Source of the DNA: Escherichia phage vB_EcoM-Ro157lw
Sequence record: MH051335.1
Strand: one strand, 5' to 3'
Length of the DNA stretch: 64,000 bases
Positions 48,274-53,967 of this stretch are shown here, piece after piece (positions within the stretch are counted from its first letter, which is position 1; every line of letters begins with the position of its first letter). The position numbers were made by a program, and so were the translations under genes. The notes below the pieces were generated by a model. The model saw only the letters and a program-made list of their open reading frames with translations. It made no database searches and was not told the DNA's origin.

Positions 48274-48825
48274 TTATGCAGTGTACGGAGTACCATCTTG
48301 ATTCAACCGCACGATGAACTTAAGGTCGACGCCGATGATTTCACGCGTATCAAAGATCACATAGTTGTAACGACGCTGACCAGCAATATTTGGGTTGGTG
48401 TGAGAGTCAGTTACAACTTCCTGCGCAACCTGAATGCCTTCTTCTTTAAAGAACTTGCGCCATTCAGCGAGTTCAGCGGCAGTCACGTGCATACCAAGAT
48501 GGCTAACCTGATTGTCGTGTGCATCAATATATTCGATGTTTTCGTTAATCCAGTTGCGACCTTTCGTGTAGTCAAGAATTTCAAGTTCAAGAGGCTTACC
48601 AGCGCCGCCATCGGTGCCGTTGCCAGCTTGATAGTTGAAGCGCAAGTCAGCTTCGTTGGTGCAATCGCCGCGCTGACCTTTAAAGTCATCAGCTTCAAAT
48701 ACGCGACCAGTAGCAACAACATGATCATGGAACCATTCTGTCAGGCCGATTTTAGCCAGAAAATCCTGTGCGCGCTGAGCATCTGGAATTGACAGGGCGA
48801 TTTGTTCAATTTTAAAGTGTGGCAT
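48274..48825 (-). CDS. VOC/glyoxalase-fold protein (tentative)
   Basis: N-terminal pattern KIEQIALSIPDAQRAQDFLAKIGL. Confidence 0.35.
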   Translation of the reverse strand: MPHFKIEQIALSIPDAQRAQDFLAKIGLTEWFHDHVVATGRVFEADDFKGQRGDCTNEADLRFNYQAGNGTDGGAGKPLELEILDYTKGRNWINENIEYIDAHDNQVSHLGMHVTAAELAEWRKFFKEEGIQVAQEVVTDSHTNPNIAGQRRYNYVIFDTREIIGVDLKFIVRLNQDGTPYTA

Positions 48826-48845: not shown

Positions 48846-49016
48846 TTATTGATTAATTACTGTGTTGCCTTCGATGGAATAAGTCTCAATGGAACCGACG
48901 CGCTCGTGGTTAATCTTTGCGTTTTCGATTCTTATTACTTCAAATCCAACGCCTTCTTGATCAATCTTCACTTCTGCCACGTCGCCAATCACTTCTACAA
49001 CAACTTTGATAGTCAT
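48846..49016 (-). CDS. small hypothetical protein (56 aa); below ORF-track size cutoff
   Basis: ATG 3 nt downstream of SDR stop; GGGAAA SD-like. Confidence 0.35.
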   Translation of the reverse strand: MTIKVVVEVIGDVAEVKIDQEGVGFEVIRIENAKINHERVGSIETYSIEGNTVINQ

Positions 49017-49019
49017 GAT

Positions 49020-49703
49020 TTATTTCCCAAATGGAATATCAGTACCAGACATAAAGCGCCATGCGCCCGTAATTAAGATATGGCGAATGAAGTCAGCAAT
49101 TACTTGCGGCTCAGTCTCCAATCCGTTCATCAATGCCTTTTTCTGGTATTCAGCGGCATACTCAGGAGTCCAGCCGCGAGTCGCGCAAACAGCATCTTCA
49201 ATCTGTTTGGACATGCCAGTACCACGTAGCTTGTTAGGACTAATAGAGAATACCGTGATCCCGTATTTAGGCGTAAGCTCGTGAGCCATCTGCTTGCTAA
49301 TCATAAGCGCAGCAGCCTTGGATGCATTATAACACAAGCTGGACGTCATAGGAATATGCGCAGCATTAGAAACGATATTGATCACAAAACCTTTGTTGTC
49401 GATAAGACTTTTCAGCGCGGCCTGAGTCGTGTTGACGAAAGAGAAGGCGTTGGTGTGCATAACGCGATTGAACTCTTCGTAGTTAACATCTTCGAACCAG
49501 TTGTTGGAGTTGACGCCAGCGCAGTTGATCAAGCCTTCTACGTCGTATTGAGAGAGAAGCTCTTTCATCTGTTTCGCGTTACGGATGTCATAGCCGTTCT
49601 CCAAATCAATACCGACAACTTCATGACCGTAAGCGCCAAGGGTGTCAAAAATGGATTTACCAAGACCGGAATTGCAGCCAGTTACAACAATTACTTTTTT
49701 CAT
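49020..49703 (-). CDS. short-chain dehydrogenase/reductase (SDR)
   Basis: TGxxxGxG (VTGCNSGLGKS), NCAG, YNASK catalytic motif. Confidence 0.7.
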   Translation of the reverse strand: MKKVIVVTGCNSGLGKSIFDTLGAYGHEVVGIDLENGYDIRNAKQMKELLSQYDVEGLINCAGVNSNNWFEDVNYEEFNRVMHTNAFSFVNTTQAALKSLIDNKGFVINIVSNAAHIPMTSSLCYNASKAAALMISKQMAHELTPKYGITVFSISPNKLRGTGMSKQIEDAVCATRGWTPEYAAEYQKKALMNGLETEPQVIADFIRHILITGAWRFMSGTDIPFGK

Positions 49704-49724
49704 TTATTTATCCTTTTTGGACTT

Positions 49725-49758
49725 CGTTTCGATGAGATAAATATAACTCATCGAAACG
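49725..49758 (-). promoter_or_regulatory. 12-bp perfect inverted repeat CGTTTCGATGAG / CTCATCGAAACG with 10-bp spacer in the SDR gene leader
   Basis: Direct reading; 13-mer TTCGTTTCGATGA also at 42666-42678. Confidence 0.5.
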
Positions 49759-49768
49759 CACAAGTAAA

Positions 49769-50641
49769 CTATTTATTGAAATTAATATTATGGGTGTTAA
49801 CAAGACGTTCACACATGGCGCTGTAAACACCATCATCGTGTATAGAGTCTTCGTGCTTCAGGCCGCTGATTGCGAAGCGTGTAAGCTTGACAATCTTAAG
49901 CTCGAACAGATGCCACATGTGGTAGTCTTCCGGCGTTTTCAACGTCACGCCATTAGGGAAAAGCACTTGCATAACCTGACCTACCATCACAGCGTTATCG
50001 CCATAGACAGCGTTGCGCTCACGGAAGGTTGCTGCCATTGCATCAAGAATATCGGCGGCAGTTGCCGGAGATTGTTCAACTTCCACAGCCTTAGTCTCTT
50101 CTTGCCCTGTTGCGCTTGGATCAATTGCTAATTGTTGCACCACTTCACCTGCCTTGCAAAGATTAAATGTAAAAGCGATTTTATTTTGAGCAACGGAATT
50201 ATAATACAATGCTTCATCTTGCATCCGCGCGAGTACGTCTTGTCGGTCGTCGAATACATTGATGATTCGATAATCGCCGTGCCGCAATGCGTGCGATAGC
50301 CATGCAGATTTCATAATAGTTGATGGACGTTTGTCGCCATAGTCTCTCATCTTGATTGTAAATTCATCAAAAGGAAAAACATTATCCAGACGTTCAAAAG
50401 TCACTTGTCTGTATTTTTCTGGCCTTGCAGTCCAATATTCAACCGCCTCACCGCGAAGAGATGCCGACTCTACTGCTGATGCAATGTGAGGATAGAACTG
50501 ATCATAACCAATACCGCTGTGATAGTCATCATAGTCTGACGACGGACCTGCCACCTTTATGCGGTCTAAGCGCCAACGGTCATCAAACAGCGTTCCGTCA
50601 AGGTCGAATACATTTAAGATTTCGCTGTTTTTAATGCTCAT
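49769..50641 (-). CDS. HAD-superfamily phosphatase-like protein with extra C-terminal domain
   Basis: Motif I VFDLDGTLFD and later DD motif. Confidence 0.55.
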   Translation of the reverse strand: MSIKNSEILNVFDLDGTLFDDRWRLDRIKVAGPSSDYDDYHSGIGYDQFYPHIASAVESASLRGEAVEYWTARPEKYRQVTFERLDNVFPFDEFTIKMRDYGDKRPSTIMKSAWLSHALRHGDYRIINVFDDRQDVLARMQDEALYYNSVAQNKIAFTFNLCKAGEVVQQLAIDPSATGQEETKAVEVEQSPATAADILDAMAATFRERNAVYGDNAVMVGQVMQVLFPNGVTLKTPEDYHMWHLFELKIVKLTRFAISGLKHEDSIHDDGVYSAMCERLVNTHNINFNK

Positions 50642-51468
50642 CCTTTTGATACTCCATCTTTAGCAACTGGATTGTTGGTGATTGGCATCGCACTCCAAAA
50701 CTGGATGCGCAACTCTTCTTGCTGTGCCGTGGTATCCATCCAATCACGATACCAAGGGCAATGGGCTTTGCCATGACGAGGAAACGCGCATTTACCCATA
50801 CCGATGCATTGCGGCTGTAATAATGGATTTGCCCACGGGTGCACCTTGAGGACTTCCGCAACCATTGCGCGGAATACTTCTTGATACTCGCCTTGAGTGC
50901 GCGTGCACAAGCGGTTTGACGCCATCTGCTGCAGCGTGCGCAAGTTGAACTTTGCCATGATATGCGTTTGCATATTAGAAGGCAACACGGCACGTGCATC
51001 TTGAATCTCTGCGCCAGCCGCGCGAAGCTCTTGATACAAAGCATCGATAGTCGCCATCGCATCATCCCACTTCTCTGCTAAGTATTGCTTTTGAAGTAAA
51101 GATTGGTGCTCTTCATCAGTCCCAAACGCTTCACATTGATCAATCAACTCTGGATTTTGGTGTGAGAATGCCTTCGGACGAATCGCATCAAATGCAGACG
51201 ACTCCTGAGCGCGGCTGGTACGTTCTTGATATGCGCCTGTGCGTGTGCGCACCATCTGATGGGTCATGTTCTTTGAAACATCGGTGATGTCAAAGATATA
51301 GTCCACAAAGTCAAAAGGCGACTTGATTGTATCAAGCATGTAGCGCCAGTGCTCTTGCTTCTCTGATTCCGTCATCTCAGAGACAGGCTTGCCAGTCATG
51401 CGCGTGTTCTTTGTTTCCAGCAAAAGGTCAAGTGCATCTTGGGTGTATCGAATTAATTTAACTTTCAT
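50638..51468 (-). CDS. ThyX-like flavin-dependent thymidylate synthase homolog (divergent RTR in place of RHR)
   Basis: VRTRTGAYQERTSR aligns to the ThyX RHRxxxxxxxS region. Confidence 0.5.
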   Translation of the reverse strand: MKVKLIRYTQDALDLLLETKNTRMTGKPVSEMTESEKQEHWRYMLDTIKSPFDFVDYIFDITDVSKNMTHQMVRTRTGAYQERTSRAQESSAFDAIRPKAFSHQNPELIDQCEAFGTDEEHQSLLQKQYLAEKWDDAMATIDALYQELRAAGAEIQDARAVLPSNMQTHIMAKFNLRTLQQMASNRLCTRTQGEYQEVFRAMVAEVLKVHPWANPLLQPQCIGMGKCAFPRHGKAHCPWYRDWMDTTAQQEELRIQFWSAMPITNNPVAKDGVSKG

Positions 51469-51481
51469 TTTAATTATCCTA

Positions 51482-51928
51482 TTAACGGTAGTTCACTAGT
51501 TGCTGATCACCAGAGAAGGTGCAATGATAAACAAATTGTGCATTATAAAGCAACTGAAAACTTTTCTTTGGTTCACTATTAGCACTCATCGATGTGAATA
51601 CTTCTGCACCGGAACGGTTTTCACCGATTAAGTTGACAAAGCCGCCAGTTGTGCGAGGTTGAACGAAAGTGAAACGTTGCATCCACGGAGTCCGGTTGAC
51701 ACCTTTTCCGGTGAATCCTTGAATCTGAATATTCAGACCTTCTTGCTCATTCACACCGATGTAAGTGGTAATCTTCGCACCAGTCGTTGCTGCGGTCTTA
51801 CCGTCCATCGCTTCGCAATCATAAACAGCGATTGAATCGGAAGTACGGATGGCAGCTTCAGTCGCTTCCATATACATGGTGCCGAGAATAGCAGTTGCGG
51901 CAAGCGCGATTCCAGTGATTCGTTTCAT
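51482..51928 (-). CDS. secreted protein (signal peptide, two Cys)
   Basis: N-terminus MKRITGIALAATAILG. Confidence 0.5.
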   Translation of the reverse strand: MKRITGIALAATAILGTMYMEATEAAIRTSDSIAVYDCEAMDGKTAATTGAKITTYIGVNEQEGLNIQIQGFTGKGVNRTPWMQRFTFVQPRTTGGFVNLIGENRSGAEVFTSMSANSEPKKSFQLLYNAQFVYHCTFSGDQQLVNYR

Positions 51929-51993
51929 TTTCGTTTCCTCTATGAGTTCTGCTTCAATGATTAAAGTATACGCCCATTGAAGCAGAAAGCAAA

Positions 51994-52989
51994 TTATTTA
52001 TTAGCAATATAAGCAAATTTTTGATAGTTATTTGCTTTGATGAGTTTTTCAACTTCAACAAGATCATGAGCGACGTCATCAAGCAAAATGTTTCGCCAGG
52101 TAGCAAATCGACCGACACTAAACACGTTCAAATCCATAGTCAGCTGCAGGAGTAAGGCGTGTCGCAAGTCTTTCGGAATGTCGACAATCTTTCCATATTT
52201 CTGGTCGACCTTTTCAACTTCTTCAAGAGCGATGTCACTCCATGAGAGGCCAAATGCCGTCAGCACCTCGTCGACTTCTGCGCGCAGCTTGATGTCACGG
52301 TAACGAGTGATGCCGCCAGCGGCTTCAACTGCAGCTTCACTTACGCTGACCAAAGGAATTGTTTCAATGATAAGCGTGTCACCAGTAATTGATGCGCGGT
52401 AAGTTCTGACGGAGTAGTCAGGGAAGTAAATTGTCTGATACAAATCACACTTACGTTTAATCTTAAAGCGGTAAACACGAATGTTTGCTTTATCAAATGA
52501 GAAATCAAGCTTTTGATCAATCCCAGCCAGCTTCATCATGACTGGCAGCGGCGACGTGTTGATGATTGGCGTCTCGCTATAGCCGCAAAGAGTATCAACC
52601 GGAGTATTAAAGAATATGCGGTCACCCAGTTTGTCGACAAGCTGATCATAAAAGTCATCAGGCGCAATATAACGCGTTGCAGTCTTAAGATTCATGATTG
52701 AACGGCTGCCAAACTGATTGGTGACCTTCATGGAATACATATTGGCAAGGTTGATTGGGCAATGGTCGTGGTAGTAGTTGCCGCGAAAATACACAGCCTT
52801 GTCAACTGTCACTGCCTTAAAAGGGATTCCGGTAATACGGCTTACTTCTTCGCCACGGAAGCGTAGCAGCGCCTTGTGCTGTTGCGCTCGCTCCCCTGCT
52901 TCGTACACAACAGAGTTCGGGAAGTGACACGCTGTGATAAGTCCTGCCAATCCGCCGCCGATAATCATTACAGGTTGTTTCATGTTCAT
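51994..52989 (-). CDS. FAD/NAD(P)-binding oxidoreductase (possibly UDP-galactopyranose-mutase-like)
   Basis: N-terminal GxGxxG MIIGGGLAGL; C-terminal GRFATW motif. Confidence 0.5.
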   Translation of the reverse strand: MNMKQPVMIIGGGLAGLITACHFPNSVVYEAGERAQQHKALLRFRGEEVSRITGIPFKAVTVDKAVYFRGNYYHDHCPINLANMYSMKVTNQFGSRSIMNLKTATRYIAPDDFYDQLVDKLGDRIFFNTPVDTLCGYSETPIINTSPLPVMMKLAGIDQKLDFSFDKANIRVYRFKIKRKCDLYQTIYFPDYSVRTYRASITGDTLIIETIPLVSVSEAAVEAAGGITRYRDIKLRAEVDEVLTAFGLSWSDIALEEVEKVDQKYGKIVDIPKDLRHALLLQLTMDLNVFSVGRFATWRNILLDDVAHDLVEVEKLIKANNYQKFAYIANK

Positions 52990-53121
52990 TTGTCCTTTGT
53001 GGGTGATATGAGAAGTATAATAGCTAAATTATTTTACAGCAACAAGTCATTTTATTTAGTACAGATGAAAAAAGACCCACAACAAGTGTGGGTCAATTAC
53101 CGCTGCATAACCGTCCTAAGG

Positions 53122-53967
53122 TTATTCCGCTTGATCACCGTCTTCGGCATCTTCGTTGGATTCAACATCGACAAACTCGATGTGGCCCATCTCTTCCAGC
53201 TTGCTCAGGTAGGAGCGAACGGAAGCGCCAAACAGTTGATCTTTAACTTTTTCGCCCAGCTCATCGATAGACTGCGCCACGCCAACTTCGCCTTCTTTGA
53301 TCGCCGCCAGAACGCGTCCACGGGTGGAATGCTCTTGCGGCTGGCTCAGGCCATTGCCAGTGTAGATGAAGTGGGTTGCTTTTGCGCGACGCTGACCGTT
53401 TGCCTTTTTAGCAGCCTTACGTTCTGCGATGGCTTTGCGACGTTCTTCAGCTTCTTTCTTACGCTGTTCTTTCTGCTTTTCTGCAGCTTCTTTAGCCGCA
53501 ATCTTAGCAGCTTCACGCTCTGCCTTGCGTTTCGCTTTAGCTTCTTCTTTGGCCTTCTCTTTTTCGGCCTTCGCTGCAGCACGGGCTTGATCACGCTCTG
53601 CTTTCTTAGCAGCAGCTTGTTCAGCTTTCAGGCGCTTGGCTTCTTCTTTGGCCTTTGCCTTTTCGATTTCTTTTGCTGCTTTAGCGGCTTCACGCTCTGC
53701 TTTCTTAGCAGCTGCTTTTTCTGCACGCTCTTTGGCTTTCTTCGCTGCTTCTTCAGCACGTTTCTGTGCTTTCTCATCAGCGGCCTGCTTGCGTTTCAGT
53801 GCAGCTTCTTCACGCTTGGCTTGTTTTTCCTGCTCACGCTTCTGGCGTTTTTCTTCGGCTTCTTTCTTTTTAGCCAGGCGTTTTTCTTCAGCCACGCGAC
53901 GACGTTCTGCTGCAGCTGCTTGTTTTTCTTCTTTAGATAATACTTTGATTGCTTCGGCCATATTCAC
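53122..53967 (-). CDS. Lys/Glu/Ala-rich charged-helix protein with C-terminal globular domain
   Basis: ~190 aa of KAE-rich low-complexity sequence; AAGGA SD; same strand as all neighbours. Confidence 0.6.
   Translation of the reverse strand: MNMAEAIKVLSKEEKQAAAAERRRVAEEKRLAKKKEAEEKRQKREQEKQAKREEAALKRKQAADEKAQKRAEEAAKKAKERAEKAAAKKAEREAAKAAKEIEKAKAKEEAKRLKAEQAAAKKAERDQARAAAKAEKEKAKEEAKAKRKAEREAAKIAAKEAAEKQKEQRKKEAEERRKAIAERKAAKKANGQRRAKATHFIYTGNGLSQPQEHSTRGRVLAAIKEGEVGVAQSIDELGEKVKDQLFGASVRSYLSKLEEMGHIEFVDVESNEDAEDGDQAE

What the first reader, a model, noticed from the sequence alone, without database searches (positions are those of the whole stretch)
50638..51468. ThyX-like protein with RTR replacing the conserved RHR motif
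The sequence VRTRTGAYQERTSR aligns with the ThyX signature RHRxxxxxxxS but has Thr in place of the His. Divergent thymidylate-synthase homologs in phages sometimes catalyse different pyrimidine modifications, so this may not be a plain thymidylate synthase.
Basis: partly seen in the sequence, partly recalled or inferred. Interest (0 to 1): 0.5.

Follow-up and report, generated by a model that had tools for sequence, protein, structure and literature searches.

The report
Divergent phage ThyX paired with flavoprotein
This phage gene is a real but unusual relative of the flavin-dependent thymidylate synthase ThyX that always travels with a second flavoprotein, and it is a leading candidate for making the recently discovered, genetically unexplained modified thymidine in the DNA of related phages.

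Summary
ORF 50638-51468 (minus strand, 276 aa) is a Pfam Thy1/ThyX protein. Three independent alignments put R74-T75-R76 on the RHR motif, and the signature Ser is also replaced, by Thr84.

RTR alone is not special. Among the 135 nearest 50%-identity representatives the middle residue is T in 69, H in 31, Q in 13, S in 8 and N in 6, and it switches repeatedly within clades.

What sets the subfamily apart is a suite of features:
- Ile and Phe replace His53 and His59, and Tyr91, His178 and Asn169 are also changed, while all dUMP-binding Arg/Gln residues are kept.
- In this branch there is a four-cysteine C-terminal extension.
- A UGM/amine-oxidase-fold flavoprotein (51994-52989) sits next to every such ThyX-like gene examined, in at least seven genomic backgrounds. 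A HAD phosphatase is usually adjacent too.

The window is a Wifcevirus. A 2025 preprint shows that its sister genus Pbunavirus, which has the same gene block and a 48% identical orthologue, replaces about a quarter of its thymidines with sugar-type derivatives. No known modification genes explain this.

Best reading: a partner-dependent enzyme that alkylates C5 of dUMP. I put about 0.5 on plain dTMP synthesis and about 0.35 on synthesis of a precursor of hypermodified thymidine.

The parts
50638..51468 (-). ThyX-like CDS (276 aa including Met; stop at 50638-50640)
   Evidence: ORF list. Pfam Thy1 at E 1.2e-29 and phrog_85 at 2e-38. Foldseek top hits of the AF2 model are all ThyX. NCBIfam thyX equivalog scores 79.8, below its cutoff of 87.9.
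51241..51249 (-). R74-T75-R76, occupying the RHR position of the ThyX signature
   Evidence: Alignments; codon coordinates; invariant in the family alignment A1.
51211..51219 (-). T84-S85-R86. Thr84 is at the signature Ser position (Tm S88) and Arg86 equals Tm R90, a dUMP ligand. The next residue, Ala87, replaces Tm Tyr91.
   Evidence: Census of that column: S 85, T 28, A 18.
50641..50907 (-). C-terminal extension absent from solved ThyX structures. It holds four invariant cysteines (C188, C221, C227, C237) and a conserved tail, NNPVAKDGxS. Probably a metal site.
   Evidence: Invariant in A1. Present in about 77 of 135 nearest representatives whatever the RxR residue. T. maritima has Asp at the C188 position and nothing for the other three. 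No paper on it was found.
51994..52989 (-). Partner flavoprotein (331 aa; GGGLAG dinucleotide-binding motif; phrog_4828; no Pfam family)
   Evidence: AF2 model with pLDDT 84.8. Foldseek top hits are UDP-galactopyranose mutases at E 9e-10, followed by amine oxidases, flavin monooxygenases and renalase. An HMM of this family hits every IF-type ThyX-like locus examined. In locus L011 it is 34% identical and ends 7 nt before the ThyX-like gene. Its distribution across phage records mirrors that of the ThyX-like gene.
49769..50641 (-). HAD phosphatase (DxDGT motif, PNKP type) fused to a C-terminal helical domain. Its ATG overlaps the ThyX-like TGA (ATGA).
   Evidence: Pfam HAD_PNKP at 4.7e-8 and phrog_4889. 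The overlap is seen directly in the sequence. The F8 orthologue gives a weak DUF6378 hit at its C-terminus. A HAD_PNKP gene lies beside the ThyX-like gene in L013, L016 and L018/19.
49020..49703 (-). Short-chain dehydrogenase/reductase (227 aa)
   Evidence: Pfam adh_short at 1e-31. An SDR also lies near the ThyX-like gene in Xanthomonas phage FoX6 and in the metagenomic locus L017.
48274..48825 (-). Weak VOC/glyoxalase-fold protein (183 aa); possible member of the module
   Evidence: Pfam Glyoxalase_4 at E 8e-4, below cutoff. A Glyoxalase_4 protein lies directly downstream of the ThyX-like gene in L017.
51482..51928 (-). 148-aa protein with a signal-peptide-like N-terminus, lying between the flavoprotein and the ThyX-like gene. 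It has no family and is probably not part of the module.
   Evidence: Other small ORFs occupy this position in Pbunavirus.

Best explanation
The gene encodes an active flavin-dependent enzyme of the ThyX fold that binds dUMP and adds a carbon unit at C5 of uracil. It belongs to a large, phage-borne ThyX subfamily that I call IF-type.

In this subfamily Ile and Phe replace His53 and His59. The RHR histidine is usually Thr, Ser or Asn. Tyr91, His178 and Asn169 are also replaced.

The enzyme does not work alone. It is one half of a conserved two-gene module with a UGM/amine-oxidase/renalase-fold flavoprotein encoded beside it, and a HAD phosphatase is usually adjacent as well.

The simplest product is dTMP. 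On this reading the module is a partner-assisted thymidylate synthase placed in the replication gene block to feed very fast phage DNA synthesis. The partner would take over a job, either flavin reduction or one-carbon supply, that the altered flavin/folate face no longer performs.

Shown: fold and family, conservation of the substrate-binding residues, and the gene partnership. Inferred: the product, the partner's role, and metal binding by the four cysteines.
For: - **Family and fold:**
- **Substrate ligands kept and invariant:** Q71=Q75, R74=R78, E82=E86, R86=R90, R159=R147 and R186=R174. The FAD ligands S50=T55, R76=R80, N175=N163 and R177=R165 are also kept.
- **The His position drifts freely:** T 69, H 31, Q 13, S 8, N 6, interleaved on the tree. 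This fits a role in binding phosphate rather than in catalysis.
- **Strong purifying selection:** 707 homologues, with 65% mean column identity in A1. Inteins are inserted in relatives.
- **Genomic setting:** the gene sits in the replication module with Pol III alpha, DnaQ, helicases and ligase. In a T4-like Rhizobium phage the same pair lies beside dUTPase and ribonucleotide reductase, which is the usual place for a thymidylate synthase.
- **Partnership:** the flavoprotein was found at every one of 14 IF-type loci, in at least seven backgrounds. It was absent from four loci with other ThyX types. In cultured phages it occurs in 361 records whose host distribution matches the IF-type ThyX-like gene.
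- **Canonical T remains:** about three quarters of thymidines in Pbunavirus DNA are still canonical T.
Against: - No member of this subfamily has been assayed. The characterised viral ThyX I checked, L5 gp48, has canonical RHR/SxRY.
- The protein scores below the NCBIfam thyX equivalog cutoff.
- His53, the folate/NADPH stacking residue (from memory of the T. maritima structures), and Tyr91 are lost.
- Nucleotidase-type genes (HAD_PNKP, YfbR-like HD) recur beside the gene. That is odd for a dTMP producer and typical of phages that swap a nucleotide pool.
- Near-canonical relatives sit next to FolD and a dNMP kinase instead.
- Pbunavirus DNA carries C5-derivatised thymidine with no known biosynthetic genes. 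Wifcevirus phages resist EcoRI, EcoRV, EcoKI and a type III system despite having 38, 8, 5 and 92 sites respectively.
Confidence: 0.5

Rival explanations
1. The ThyX-like enzyme and its partner flavoprotein are the missing early steps of thymidine hypermodification in Pbunavirus-type phages, Wifcevirus included. Instead of reducing the C5 exocyclic methylene to a methyl group, the enzyme would release 5-hydroxymethyl-dUMP, or a dUMP carrying a larger sugar-derived substituent. The adjacent phosphatases would trim the product or deplete competing dTMP. The modified nucleotide would then enter DNA and shield it from restriction.
For: - F8 and 14-1 virion DNA contains novel thymidine derivatives of 362 and 390 Da, replacing about a quarter of T. 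The authors stress that Pbunavirus lacks genes previously tied to hypermodification. Native Nanopore reads of Pbunavirus are degraded and PCR rescues them.
- The ThyX-like gene is the only enzyme recognised in these genomes that can form a C-C bond at uracil C5.
- The changes cluster on the flavin/folate face, while the dUMP ligands are untouched.
- Sugar-type neighbours recur. These are a UGM-fold partner, an SDR and a VOC protein, and, in L013, GT2, a true UGM, DUF4422 and PIG-L on the same strand.
- Nucleotidases and a kinase sit beside the pair, as in hmU phages (introduction of PMC8989533).
- Wifcevirus is unexplainedly resistant to restriction.
- The masses fit 5-hmdU plus a tetritol or pentose minus water. 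They fit equally dU carrying a 1-deoxypentitol or a hexosyl group at C5 (my arithmetic).
Against: - The modification was reported in a TG context, with 75% normal T. That points to a sequence-reading step on DNA, not to pool-level synthesis.
- No DNA glycosyltransferase, 5-hmU DNA kinase or dedicated dNMP kinase was found in the window.
- The same gene pair occurs in many phage lineages, including a T4-like phage where a thymidylate synthase is expected.
- No modification has been shown for any Wifcevirus, and F8 is cut by EcoRI whereas Wifcevirus resists it.
- No homologue of the 14-1 anti-END inhibitor candidates was found in the window.
Confidence: 0.35
2. The enzyme acts on a substrate other than dUMP. 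Candidates are dCMP, UMP (as in the polyoxin enzyme PolB), or uracil/thymine within DNA or RNA.
For: Divergence from canonical ThyX. The TG-context modification in Pbunavirus would be easiest to explain by an enzyme acting on DNA.
Against: - All residues that bind the uracil O4/N3/O2 atoms and the 5'-phosphate in T. maritima ThyX are invariant here: R186, R86, Q71, R159 and R74.
- A switch to cytosine would be expected to replace the Arg that polarises O4.
- No ThyX-fold enzyme is known to act on polynucleotides (my knowledge).
Confidence: 0.07
3. The protein is a decayed or non-catalytic ThyX relic, and the RTR change reflects loss of FAD binding.
For: Loss of several canonical His/Tyr residues; score below the equivalog cutoff.
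Against: There is very strong conservation across hundreds of phages, with invariant active-site arginines, an invariant RTR and an invariant C-terminal tail. The stop codon overlaps the start of the next gene, which indicates translational coupling. Most FAD ligands are retained.
Confidence: 0.03

Closest known systems
Canonical flavin-dependent thymidylate synthase ThyX (T. maritima TM0449, M. tuberculosis Rv2754c, T. thermophilus 6j61)
   Same: Same Pfam family and fold. The same dUMP-binding Arg/Gln/Glu set and most FAD ligands are present, and the core has the same overall length.
   Different: - RTRx7T replaces RHRx7S.
- Ile and Phe replace His53 and His59, Ala replaces Tyr91, Arg replaces His178 and Gln replaces Asn169.
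- There is an added C-terminal extension of about 65 residues with four Cys.
- It scores below the TIGR02170 equivalog cutoff.
- It is always encoded beside a second flavoprotein.

Phmmer E-values to PDB ThyX chains are only about 1e-3.
Characterised viral ThyX proteins (mycobacteriophage L5 gp48; PBCV-1 A674R)
   Same: Phage or virus-borne ThyX genes located in nucleotide-metabolism or replication gene blocks.
   Different: L5 gp48 has the canonical GHESVFEH, RHR and SQRY motifs and no Cys cluster. The statement that L5 gp48 and A674R have measured thymidylate synthase activity rests on my knowledge of the literature. No IF-type member has been tested.
ThyA-family dUMP hydroxymethylases of hmU phages (SPO1/SP8, M6, ViI, phiW-14)
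   Same: If the rival explanation is right, the role would be the same: making a C5-hydroxymethyl pyrimidine nucleotide that is later decorated. The accompanying dTMPase, dTTPase and kinase logic would also be the same (PMC8989533).
   Different: The fold and chemistry are unrelated: a cysteine nucleophile and folate as reductant versus a flavin N5 relay. No 5-hmU DNA kinase or aGPT-Pplase was found in this window.
UDP-galactopyranose mutase and GR2-fold amine oxidases/renalase (for the partner protein)
   Same: FAD-binding fold (Foldseek E 9e-10, TM 0.63 over the query) and an N-terminal GxGxxG motif. A C-terminal GRFATW..LLDD motif resembles the UGM FAD motif; this comparison is from memory. 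UGM, like ThyX, uses reduced flavin N5 as a nucleophile that forms an iminium adduct (my knowledge).
   Different: It is only 331 aa and has no Pfam GLF or Amino_oxidase hit. In L013 it coexists with a true UGM, so it is a distinct family (phrog_4828) of unknown reaction.

Membership tests
ThyX / FDTS (Pfam PF02511 Thy1) | Match to the family HMM above the gathering score | tested here: met
   103.9 bits against a cutoff of 24.8, covering residues 5-212 and profile positions 2-191 of 191.
ThyX / FDTS | NCBIfam TIGR02170 thyX equivalog cutoff (same function assumed) | tested here: not met
   79.8 bits against a cutoff of 87.9.
ThyX / FDTS | ThyX signature RHRx7S | tested here: not met
   The motif is RTRx7T (R74 T75 R76 ... 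T84). This is a subfamily-wide state, not a private mutation.
ThyX / FDTS | dUMP-binding and activating residues (Tm Q75, R78, E86, R90, R147, R174) | tested here: met
   Q71, R74, E82, R86, R159 and R186 align with them. All but position 82, which varies between E and Q, are invariant in A1, and they are at least 94% conserved in 135 representatives.
ThyX / FDTS | FAD-binding residues (Tm T55, R78, H79, R80, N163, R165, N169, R174, H178; list partly from memory, RHR role from PMC6514825) | tested here: inconclusive
   Kept: S50, R74, R76, N175, R177 and R186. Changed: H79 to T, N169 to Q, and H178 to R. The polar replacements could still bind FAD.
ThyX / FDTS | Folate/NADPH-face residues His53 and Tyr91 (roles from memory of T. 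maritima work) | tested here: not met
   Ile48 aligns with His53 in the profile alignment, and Ala87 aligns with Tyr91.
ThyX / FDTS | ThyX fold | tested here: met
   The first 50 Foldseek PDB hits are all ThyX (best E 3.5e-5). The monomer model is only moderate (pLDDT 71, TM 0.38-0.52).
ThyX / FDTS | dUMP to dTMP activity with CH2-THF and NAD(P)H; complementation of thyA | not testable with these tools
   No assay of any IF-type member was found in the library.
Known thymidine-hypermodification pathway (5-hmdU route of Lee et al.) | ThyA-type dUMP hydroxymethylase, 5-hmU DNA kinase, aGPT-Pplase/amino-acid:DNA transferase | tested here: not met
   None was seen among the window proteins scanned with Pfam and PHROGs. 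The END-nuclease preprint says the same for Pbunavirus. Not every small ORF was scanned.
UDP-galactopyranose mutase (for the partner, 51994-52989) | Pfam GLF domain / UGM sequence family | tested here: not met
   No Pfam hit even at E 10. The fold resembles UGM, but L013 carries both a true UGM and this protein.

The most novel reading that the evidence does not exclude
The IF-type ThyX-like enzyme and its UGM-fold partner form a previously unrecognised two-flavoprotein system that installs something other than a methyl group at C5 of dUMP.

Two products are possible:
- a hydroxymethyl group, made by hydrating the exocyclic methylene; or
- more radically, the C1 carbon of an aldose, carried as a flavin-N5 iminium adduct. 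This chemistry is shared by UGM and ThyX. It would give 5-(1-deoxypentitol-1-yl)-dU (362.33 Da) and 5-hexosyl-dU (390.34 Da), the masses reported for phages F8 and 14-1.

This would be the missing biosynthetic route to the hypermodified thymidine of Pbunavirus. It would also explain the restriction resistance of Wifcevirus, and it would be the first ThyX-family enzyme that is not a methylase.
Probability: 0.3. Interest if true: 0.85.

Novelty: new variant of a known kind. Interest (0 to 1): 0.6.

Why it matters
Pbunavirus phages are among the most used therapeutic phages against Pseudomonas aeruginosa. In 2025 their DNA was found to carry a new kind of sugar-type thymidine modification, and the genes that make it are unknown. 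This window shows that the 'thymidylate synthase' annotated in these phages and in their E. coli relatives is not a standard ThyX. It is a distinct subfamily locked to a partner flavoprotein and a phosphatase.

That gives a short, testable list of candidate genes for the modification: in F8, gp59, gp65 and gp57; in this window, 50638-51468, 51994-52989 and 49769-50641.

If the pair turns out to be only a thymidylate synthase, it would still be the first two-component form of that enzyme, with an undescribed four-cysteine site. It would also warn against transferring the ThyX annotation by homology across hundreds of phage genomes.

Tried and rejected
**Searches that gave nothing useful**
- A scan of one genome per bacterial and archaeal species for close relatives found none. 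The close clade therefore looks phage-only, although the scan used just two peptide patterns.
- Sequence searches of the partner flavoprotein against Pfam, NCBIfam and PDB matched only the GxGxxG motif. Its fold came only from AF2 plus Foldseek.
- The homologue search for the neighbouring 281-aa protein (53122-53967) was swamped by low-complexity hits. The sequence is a K/E/A-rich protein, not an enzyme, so I dropped it from the module.
- I found no window homologues of the 14-1 anti-END candidates or of F8 orf069-071.
- Two T. maritima mechanism papers (PMC3465422, PMC5939375) are not held. The roles I give for His53, Tyr91, Ser88 and Arg174 therefore rest partly on memory.
- Literature searches found nothing on ThyX in Pbunavirus or on a ThyX metal site.

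**Tests that were not decisive**
- Comparing F8 with 14-1 gene by gene did not single out the block. ThyX-like is 94% identical, the flavoprotein 97% and the HAD fusion 81%. The most diverged gene is orf070, at 57%, and it has no recognisable family.

**Ideas rejected**
- RTR as a marker of new function: the position is too variable, and RHR members share the same gene partners.
- dCMP as substrate: the uracil-reading residues are invariant.
- Site avoidance as the explanation for Wifcevirus restriction resistance: EcoRI, EcoRV and EcoKI sites are present (13, 7 and 4 in the window; 38, 8 and 5 in Bas99).
Full report
**What is there.** The window is a Wifcevirus, an E. coli myovirus. A 4-kb stretch around the finding (49000-53000) is 98% identical to phage FEC19 and 94-98% identical to 27 other Escherichia and Shigella phages. 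The finding is the ORF at 50638-51468 on the minus strand (276 aa). It has an AGGA ribosome-binding site, and its TGA overlaps the ATG of the next gene as ATGA.

It matches Pfam Thy1/ThyX at E 1.2e-29 and the phage family phrog_85, thymidylate synthase, at 2e-38. GenBank records call it thymidylate synthase or hypothetical protein.

**The motif.** VRTRTGAYQERTSR is residues 73-86. Three alignments put R74-T75-R76 on the RHR of the ThyX signature:
- phmmer against solved ThyX chains;
- a profile of 18 family members against the same chains;
- MAFFT with T. maritima ThyX.

RTR is invariant in the 18-member alignment, which spans Wifcevirus, Serratia, Erwinia, Pantoea and Burkholderia phages and Pbunavirus-like metagenomic sequences.

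**Is His-to-Thr meaningful in itself?** A search of 1.84 billion cluster representatives gave 1535 relatives at E≤1e-3 and 342 at E≤1e-10. I aligned the best 150, kept 135 that were long enough, and read off the key columns.
- The middle residue of RxR is T in 69, H in 31, Q in 13, S in 8 and N in 6.
- On a rough neighbour-joining tree, H, T, S, N and Q are interleaved within clades that are otherwise alike.
- Cultured examples: Rhizobium phage RHph_TM30 has RNR, mycobacteriophage Onyinye has RSR, and Clostridium phage phiCP9O and mycobacteriophage L5 gp48 have RHR.
- According to a review of ThyX structures, the RHR residues hydrogen-bond the phosphates and ribityl of FAD (PMC6514825). Thr, Ser, Asn and Gln can do the same.

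So RTR is the commonest state of a large clade. It is not a private oddity, and it is poor evidence for a new activity.

**What really distinguishes the protein.** Mapped onto T. maritima ThyX, the residues fall into two groups.
- *Kept, and almost invariant among the 135 representatives:* the residues that hold dUMP and polarise the uracil (Q71=Q75, R74=R78, E82=E86, R86=R90, R159=R147, R186=R174), and several FAD ligands (S50=T55, R76=R80, N175=N163, R177=R165).
- *Changed:* His53 to Ile48, His59 to Phe54, His79 to Thr75, Ser88 to Thr84, Tyr91 to Ala87, Asn169 to Gln181 and His178 to Arg190.

These changes lie on the flavin/folate/NADPH side. The roles of His53 and Tyr91 are from my memory of the T. 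maritima work, because the papers were not available.

I call this suite IF-type, after Ile48/Phe54. It covers most of the tree. The protein scores 79.8 bits against the NCBIfam thyX equivalog model, below its cutoff of 87.9. The AF2 model is moderate (pLDDT 71), and its Foldseek hits in the PDB are all ThyX.

The invariant uracil- and phosphate-binding residues argue for a dUMP mononucleotide substrate. They argue against dCMP or a polynucleotide.

**A four-cysteine extension.** C188 sits two residues after the catalytic Arg186, where T. maritima has Asp176. C221, C227 and C237 lie in a C-terminal extension that solved ThyX structures lack, and all four are invariant. The extension ends in a conserved NNPVAKDGxS tail.

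The four cysteines occur in about 77 of the 135 representatives, with RHR, RTR and RQR alike. They are also present in near-canonical sequences that keep His59 and SxRY, one of which comes from an archaeal MAG. They are therefore an old feature of a large ThyX clade, probably a metal site. I found no paper on it and could not check its geometry.

**The gene partnership.** On the same strand, moving upstream from the Pol III alpha and DnaQ genes and the weak VOC-fold gene (48274-48825) towards the Dda helicase gene, the window encodes:
- an SDR (49020-49703);
- a PNKP-type HAD phosphatase fused to a helical domain (49769-50641);
- the ThyX-like gene;
- a small secreted-type ORF;
- a 331-aa protein (51994-52989);
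- a K/E/A-rich protein.

The 331-aa protein has a GGGLAG motif and no Pfam or NCBIfam family. It gives a good AF2 model (pLDDT 85). The best structural matches are UDP-galactopyranose mutases (E 9e-10), followed by amine oxidases, flavin monooxygenases and renalase.

The order flavoprotein, ThyX-like, HAD fusion is kept in Pbunavirus (JG024, F8, 14-1) and in Xanthomonas phage FoX6. Those phages are related, so this alone proves little.

I therefore fetched contigs carrying distant IF-type ThyX-like proteins (36-46% identical).
- **L011:** a phage with a family A polymerase. The flavoprotein homologue is 34% identical (BLASTP 2e-60; hhalign probability 100%) and ends 7 nt before the ThyX-like gene. 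A YfbR-like HD nucleotidase and an AAA_28 kinase sit just upstream, and a dUTPase lies downstream.
- **L013:** one strand carries GT2, a true UGM, DUF4422, HAD_PNKP, the flavoprotein homologue, ThyX-like, a YfbR-like nucleotidase and a PIG-L deacetylase.
- **L015/L016:** flavoprotein, ThyX-like, HAD_PNKP and a methyltransferase.
- **L017:** an RHR-bearing IF member, with flavoprotein, ThyX-like, a Glyoxalase_4 protein and an SDR.
- **L018/L019:** a cysteine-less IF member, with flavoprotein, ThyX-like and HAD_PNKP.

An HMM of the flavoprotein family hit all 14 IF-type loci. These include the T4-like Rhizobium phage, where the gene lies 2.4 kb upstream of ThyX-like and near dUTPase and ribonucleotide reductase. 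The HMM hit none of four loci with other ThyX types. One of those four, a near-canonical four-cysteine ThyX, sits next to FolD and a dNMP kinase instead.

In cultured phages the flavoprotein occurs in 361 records: Pseudomonas 292, Escherichia 26, Serratia 9, Rhizobium 8 and Xanthomonas 6. This matches the IF-type ThyX-like distribution. It is absent from the Gordonia, Mycobacterium, Clostridium, Sulfolobus and Bacillus phages that carry other ThyX types.

The pair is thus a conserved module. It tracks the IF suite, not the His/Thr choice.

[quoted passage not shown] This holds although Bas99 has 38 EcoRI, 8 EcoRV, 5 EcoKI and 92 EcoCFT_II sites (PMC11990801). The window itself has 13 EcoRI, 7 EcoRV and 4 EcoKI sites.

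Wifcevirus is the sister of Pbunavirus. A 2025 preprint (PMC12191111) reports the following:
- F8 DNA resists five enzymes whose sites contain TG.
- F8 and 14-1 nucleoside digests contain novel thymidine derivatives of 362 and 390 Da, replacing about a quarter of T. These are interpreted as a tetrose sugar-alcohol derivative and a cyclised aldopentose derivative.
- Pbunavirus carries none of the genes previously implicated in hypermodification.

A 2026 preprint finds that native Nanopore reads of Pbunavirus are degraded and that PCR rescues them.

By my arithmetic, 362.33 and 390.34 Da equal 5-hmdU plus a tetritol or a pentose minus water. They equally fit dU bearing a 1-deoxypentitol or a hexosyl group at C5.

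The ThyX-like enzyme, 48% identical between Wifcevirus and Pbunavirus, is the only recognised enzyme in these genomes that can attach carbon to uracil C5. Its conserved neighbours are of the sugar and nucleotidase kind.

**Weighing the readings.** For plain dTMP synthesis:
- the substrate site is intact;
- the module is broadly distributed, including in the thymidylate-synthase slot of a T4-like phage;
- most T in Pbunavirus is canonical;
- the TG context implies that a DNA-level enzyme chooses the sites.

For a modified product:
- the flavin/folate face is remodelled;
- the flavoprotein partner is obligate;
- nucleotidases, an SDR, a VOC protein and glycosyl enzymes recur nearby;
- Pbunavirus has an orphan thymidine modification;
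- Wifcevirus restriction resistance is unexplained.

I put about 0.5 on a partner-assisted thymidylate synthase, 0.35 on a precursor synthase for hypermodified thymidine, 0.07 on another substrate and 0.03 on an inactive relic.

The gene-by-gene comparison of F8 with 14-1 did not discriminate. ThyX-like is 94% identical, the flavoprotein 97% and the HAD fusion 81%. The most diverged gene, orf070 at 57%, has no recognisable family and no Wifcevirus homologue.

**Verdict.** The motif observation is right. The gene is a member of an uncharacterised ThyX subfamily defined by an altered cofactor face, a four-cysteine extension in this branch, and an obligate UGM-fold flavoprotein partner. It sits in a phage lineage with newly found thymidine modifications whose genes are unknown. 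It is a new variant of a known kind, with a realistic chance of being the entry point to a new DNA-modification pathway.

Noticed in passing
window 50758-50907 (C188, C221, C227, C237 of the ThyX-like protein); also P0219, P0250, P0263-P0270: A four-cysteine site links the helix carrying the catalytic Arg to a C-terminal extension. It occurs in about 77 of the 135 nearest ThyX representatives, including near-canonical RHR/SxRY ones (one from an archaeal MAG). No solved ThyX has it, and no paper on it was found.
   Followed up: partly
window 1-64000: GATC is strongly depleted (117 observed against about 283 expected). BamHI and SacII sites are absent (0 against about 9 and 13 expected). EcoRI and EcoRV sites are roughly half of expectation.
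   Followed up: no
L008 17894-19090 (F8 orf070) versus L009 17997-19301 (14-1 orf070): This is the most diverged gene between F8 and 14-1 in the 22-kb replication block (57% identity, 398 against 434 aa; its neighbours are 92-99% identical). It has CxxC motifs and no recognisable family. It is a candidate for the difference between the 362 Da and 390 Da modifications. There is no homologue in the window.
   Followed up: partly
L008 9772-10836 (F8 gp57) versus L009 9940-10956; window 49769-50641: The HAD phosphatase is fused through an acidic linker to a helical C-terminal domain that gives a weak DUF6378 match (E 0.022). In F8 the linker is expanded as EDAA repeats. In other phages the HAD domain stands alone (139-191 aa).
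   Followed up: partly
window 53122-53967 (minus strand): A 281-aa protein that is almost entirely a K/E/A-rich, coiled-coil-like stretch with a small, winged-helix-like C-terminal domain. It is conserved next to the flavoprotein in Pbunavirus, where JG024 annotates it as a 'putative structural protein'. Its low complexity swamped the homologue search.
   Followed up: partly
L013 235-8386 (metagenomic contig SRR29371163_40644): One strand carries GT2, a true UDP-galactopyranose mutase, DUF4422 (glycosyltransferase-like), HAD_PNKP, the partner flavoprotein, ThyX-like, a YfbR-like HD nucleotidase and a PIG-L deacetylase. This is a sugar-handling set interleaved with the ThyX module.
   Followed up: partly
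P0160, P0168, P0261 (ThyX-like representatives): Inteins are inserted in ThyX-like proteins of this clade, splitting the Thy1 domain near profile positions 65-71, close to the RxR motif region.
   Followed up: no
L021 6259-8828: A near-canonical four-cysteine ThyX (RHR, His59, SxRY) lies directly after a FolD-type methylene-THF dehydrogenase/cyclohydrolase and a dNMP kinase. This classic thymidylate context contrasts with the flavoprotein/HAD context of the IF-type genes.
   Followed up: partly
window 51482-51928 (minus strand): A 148-aa ORF with a signal-peptide-like N-terminus and no family match lies between the flavoprotein and the ThyX-like gene in Wifcevirus. Pbunavirus has several unrelated small ORFs at this position.
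   Followed up: no
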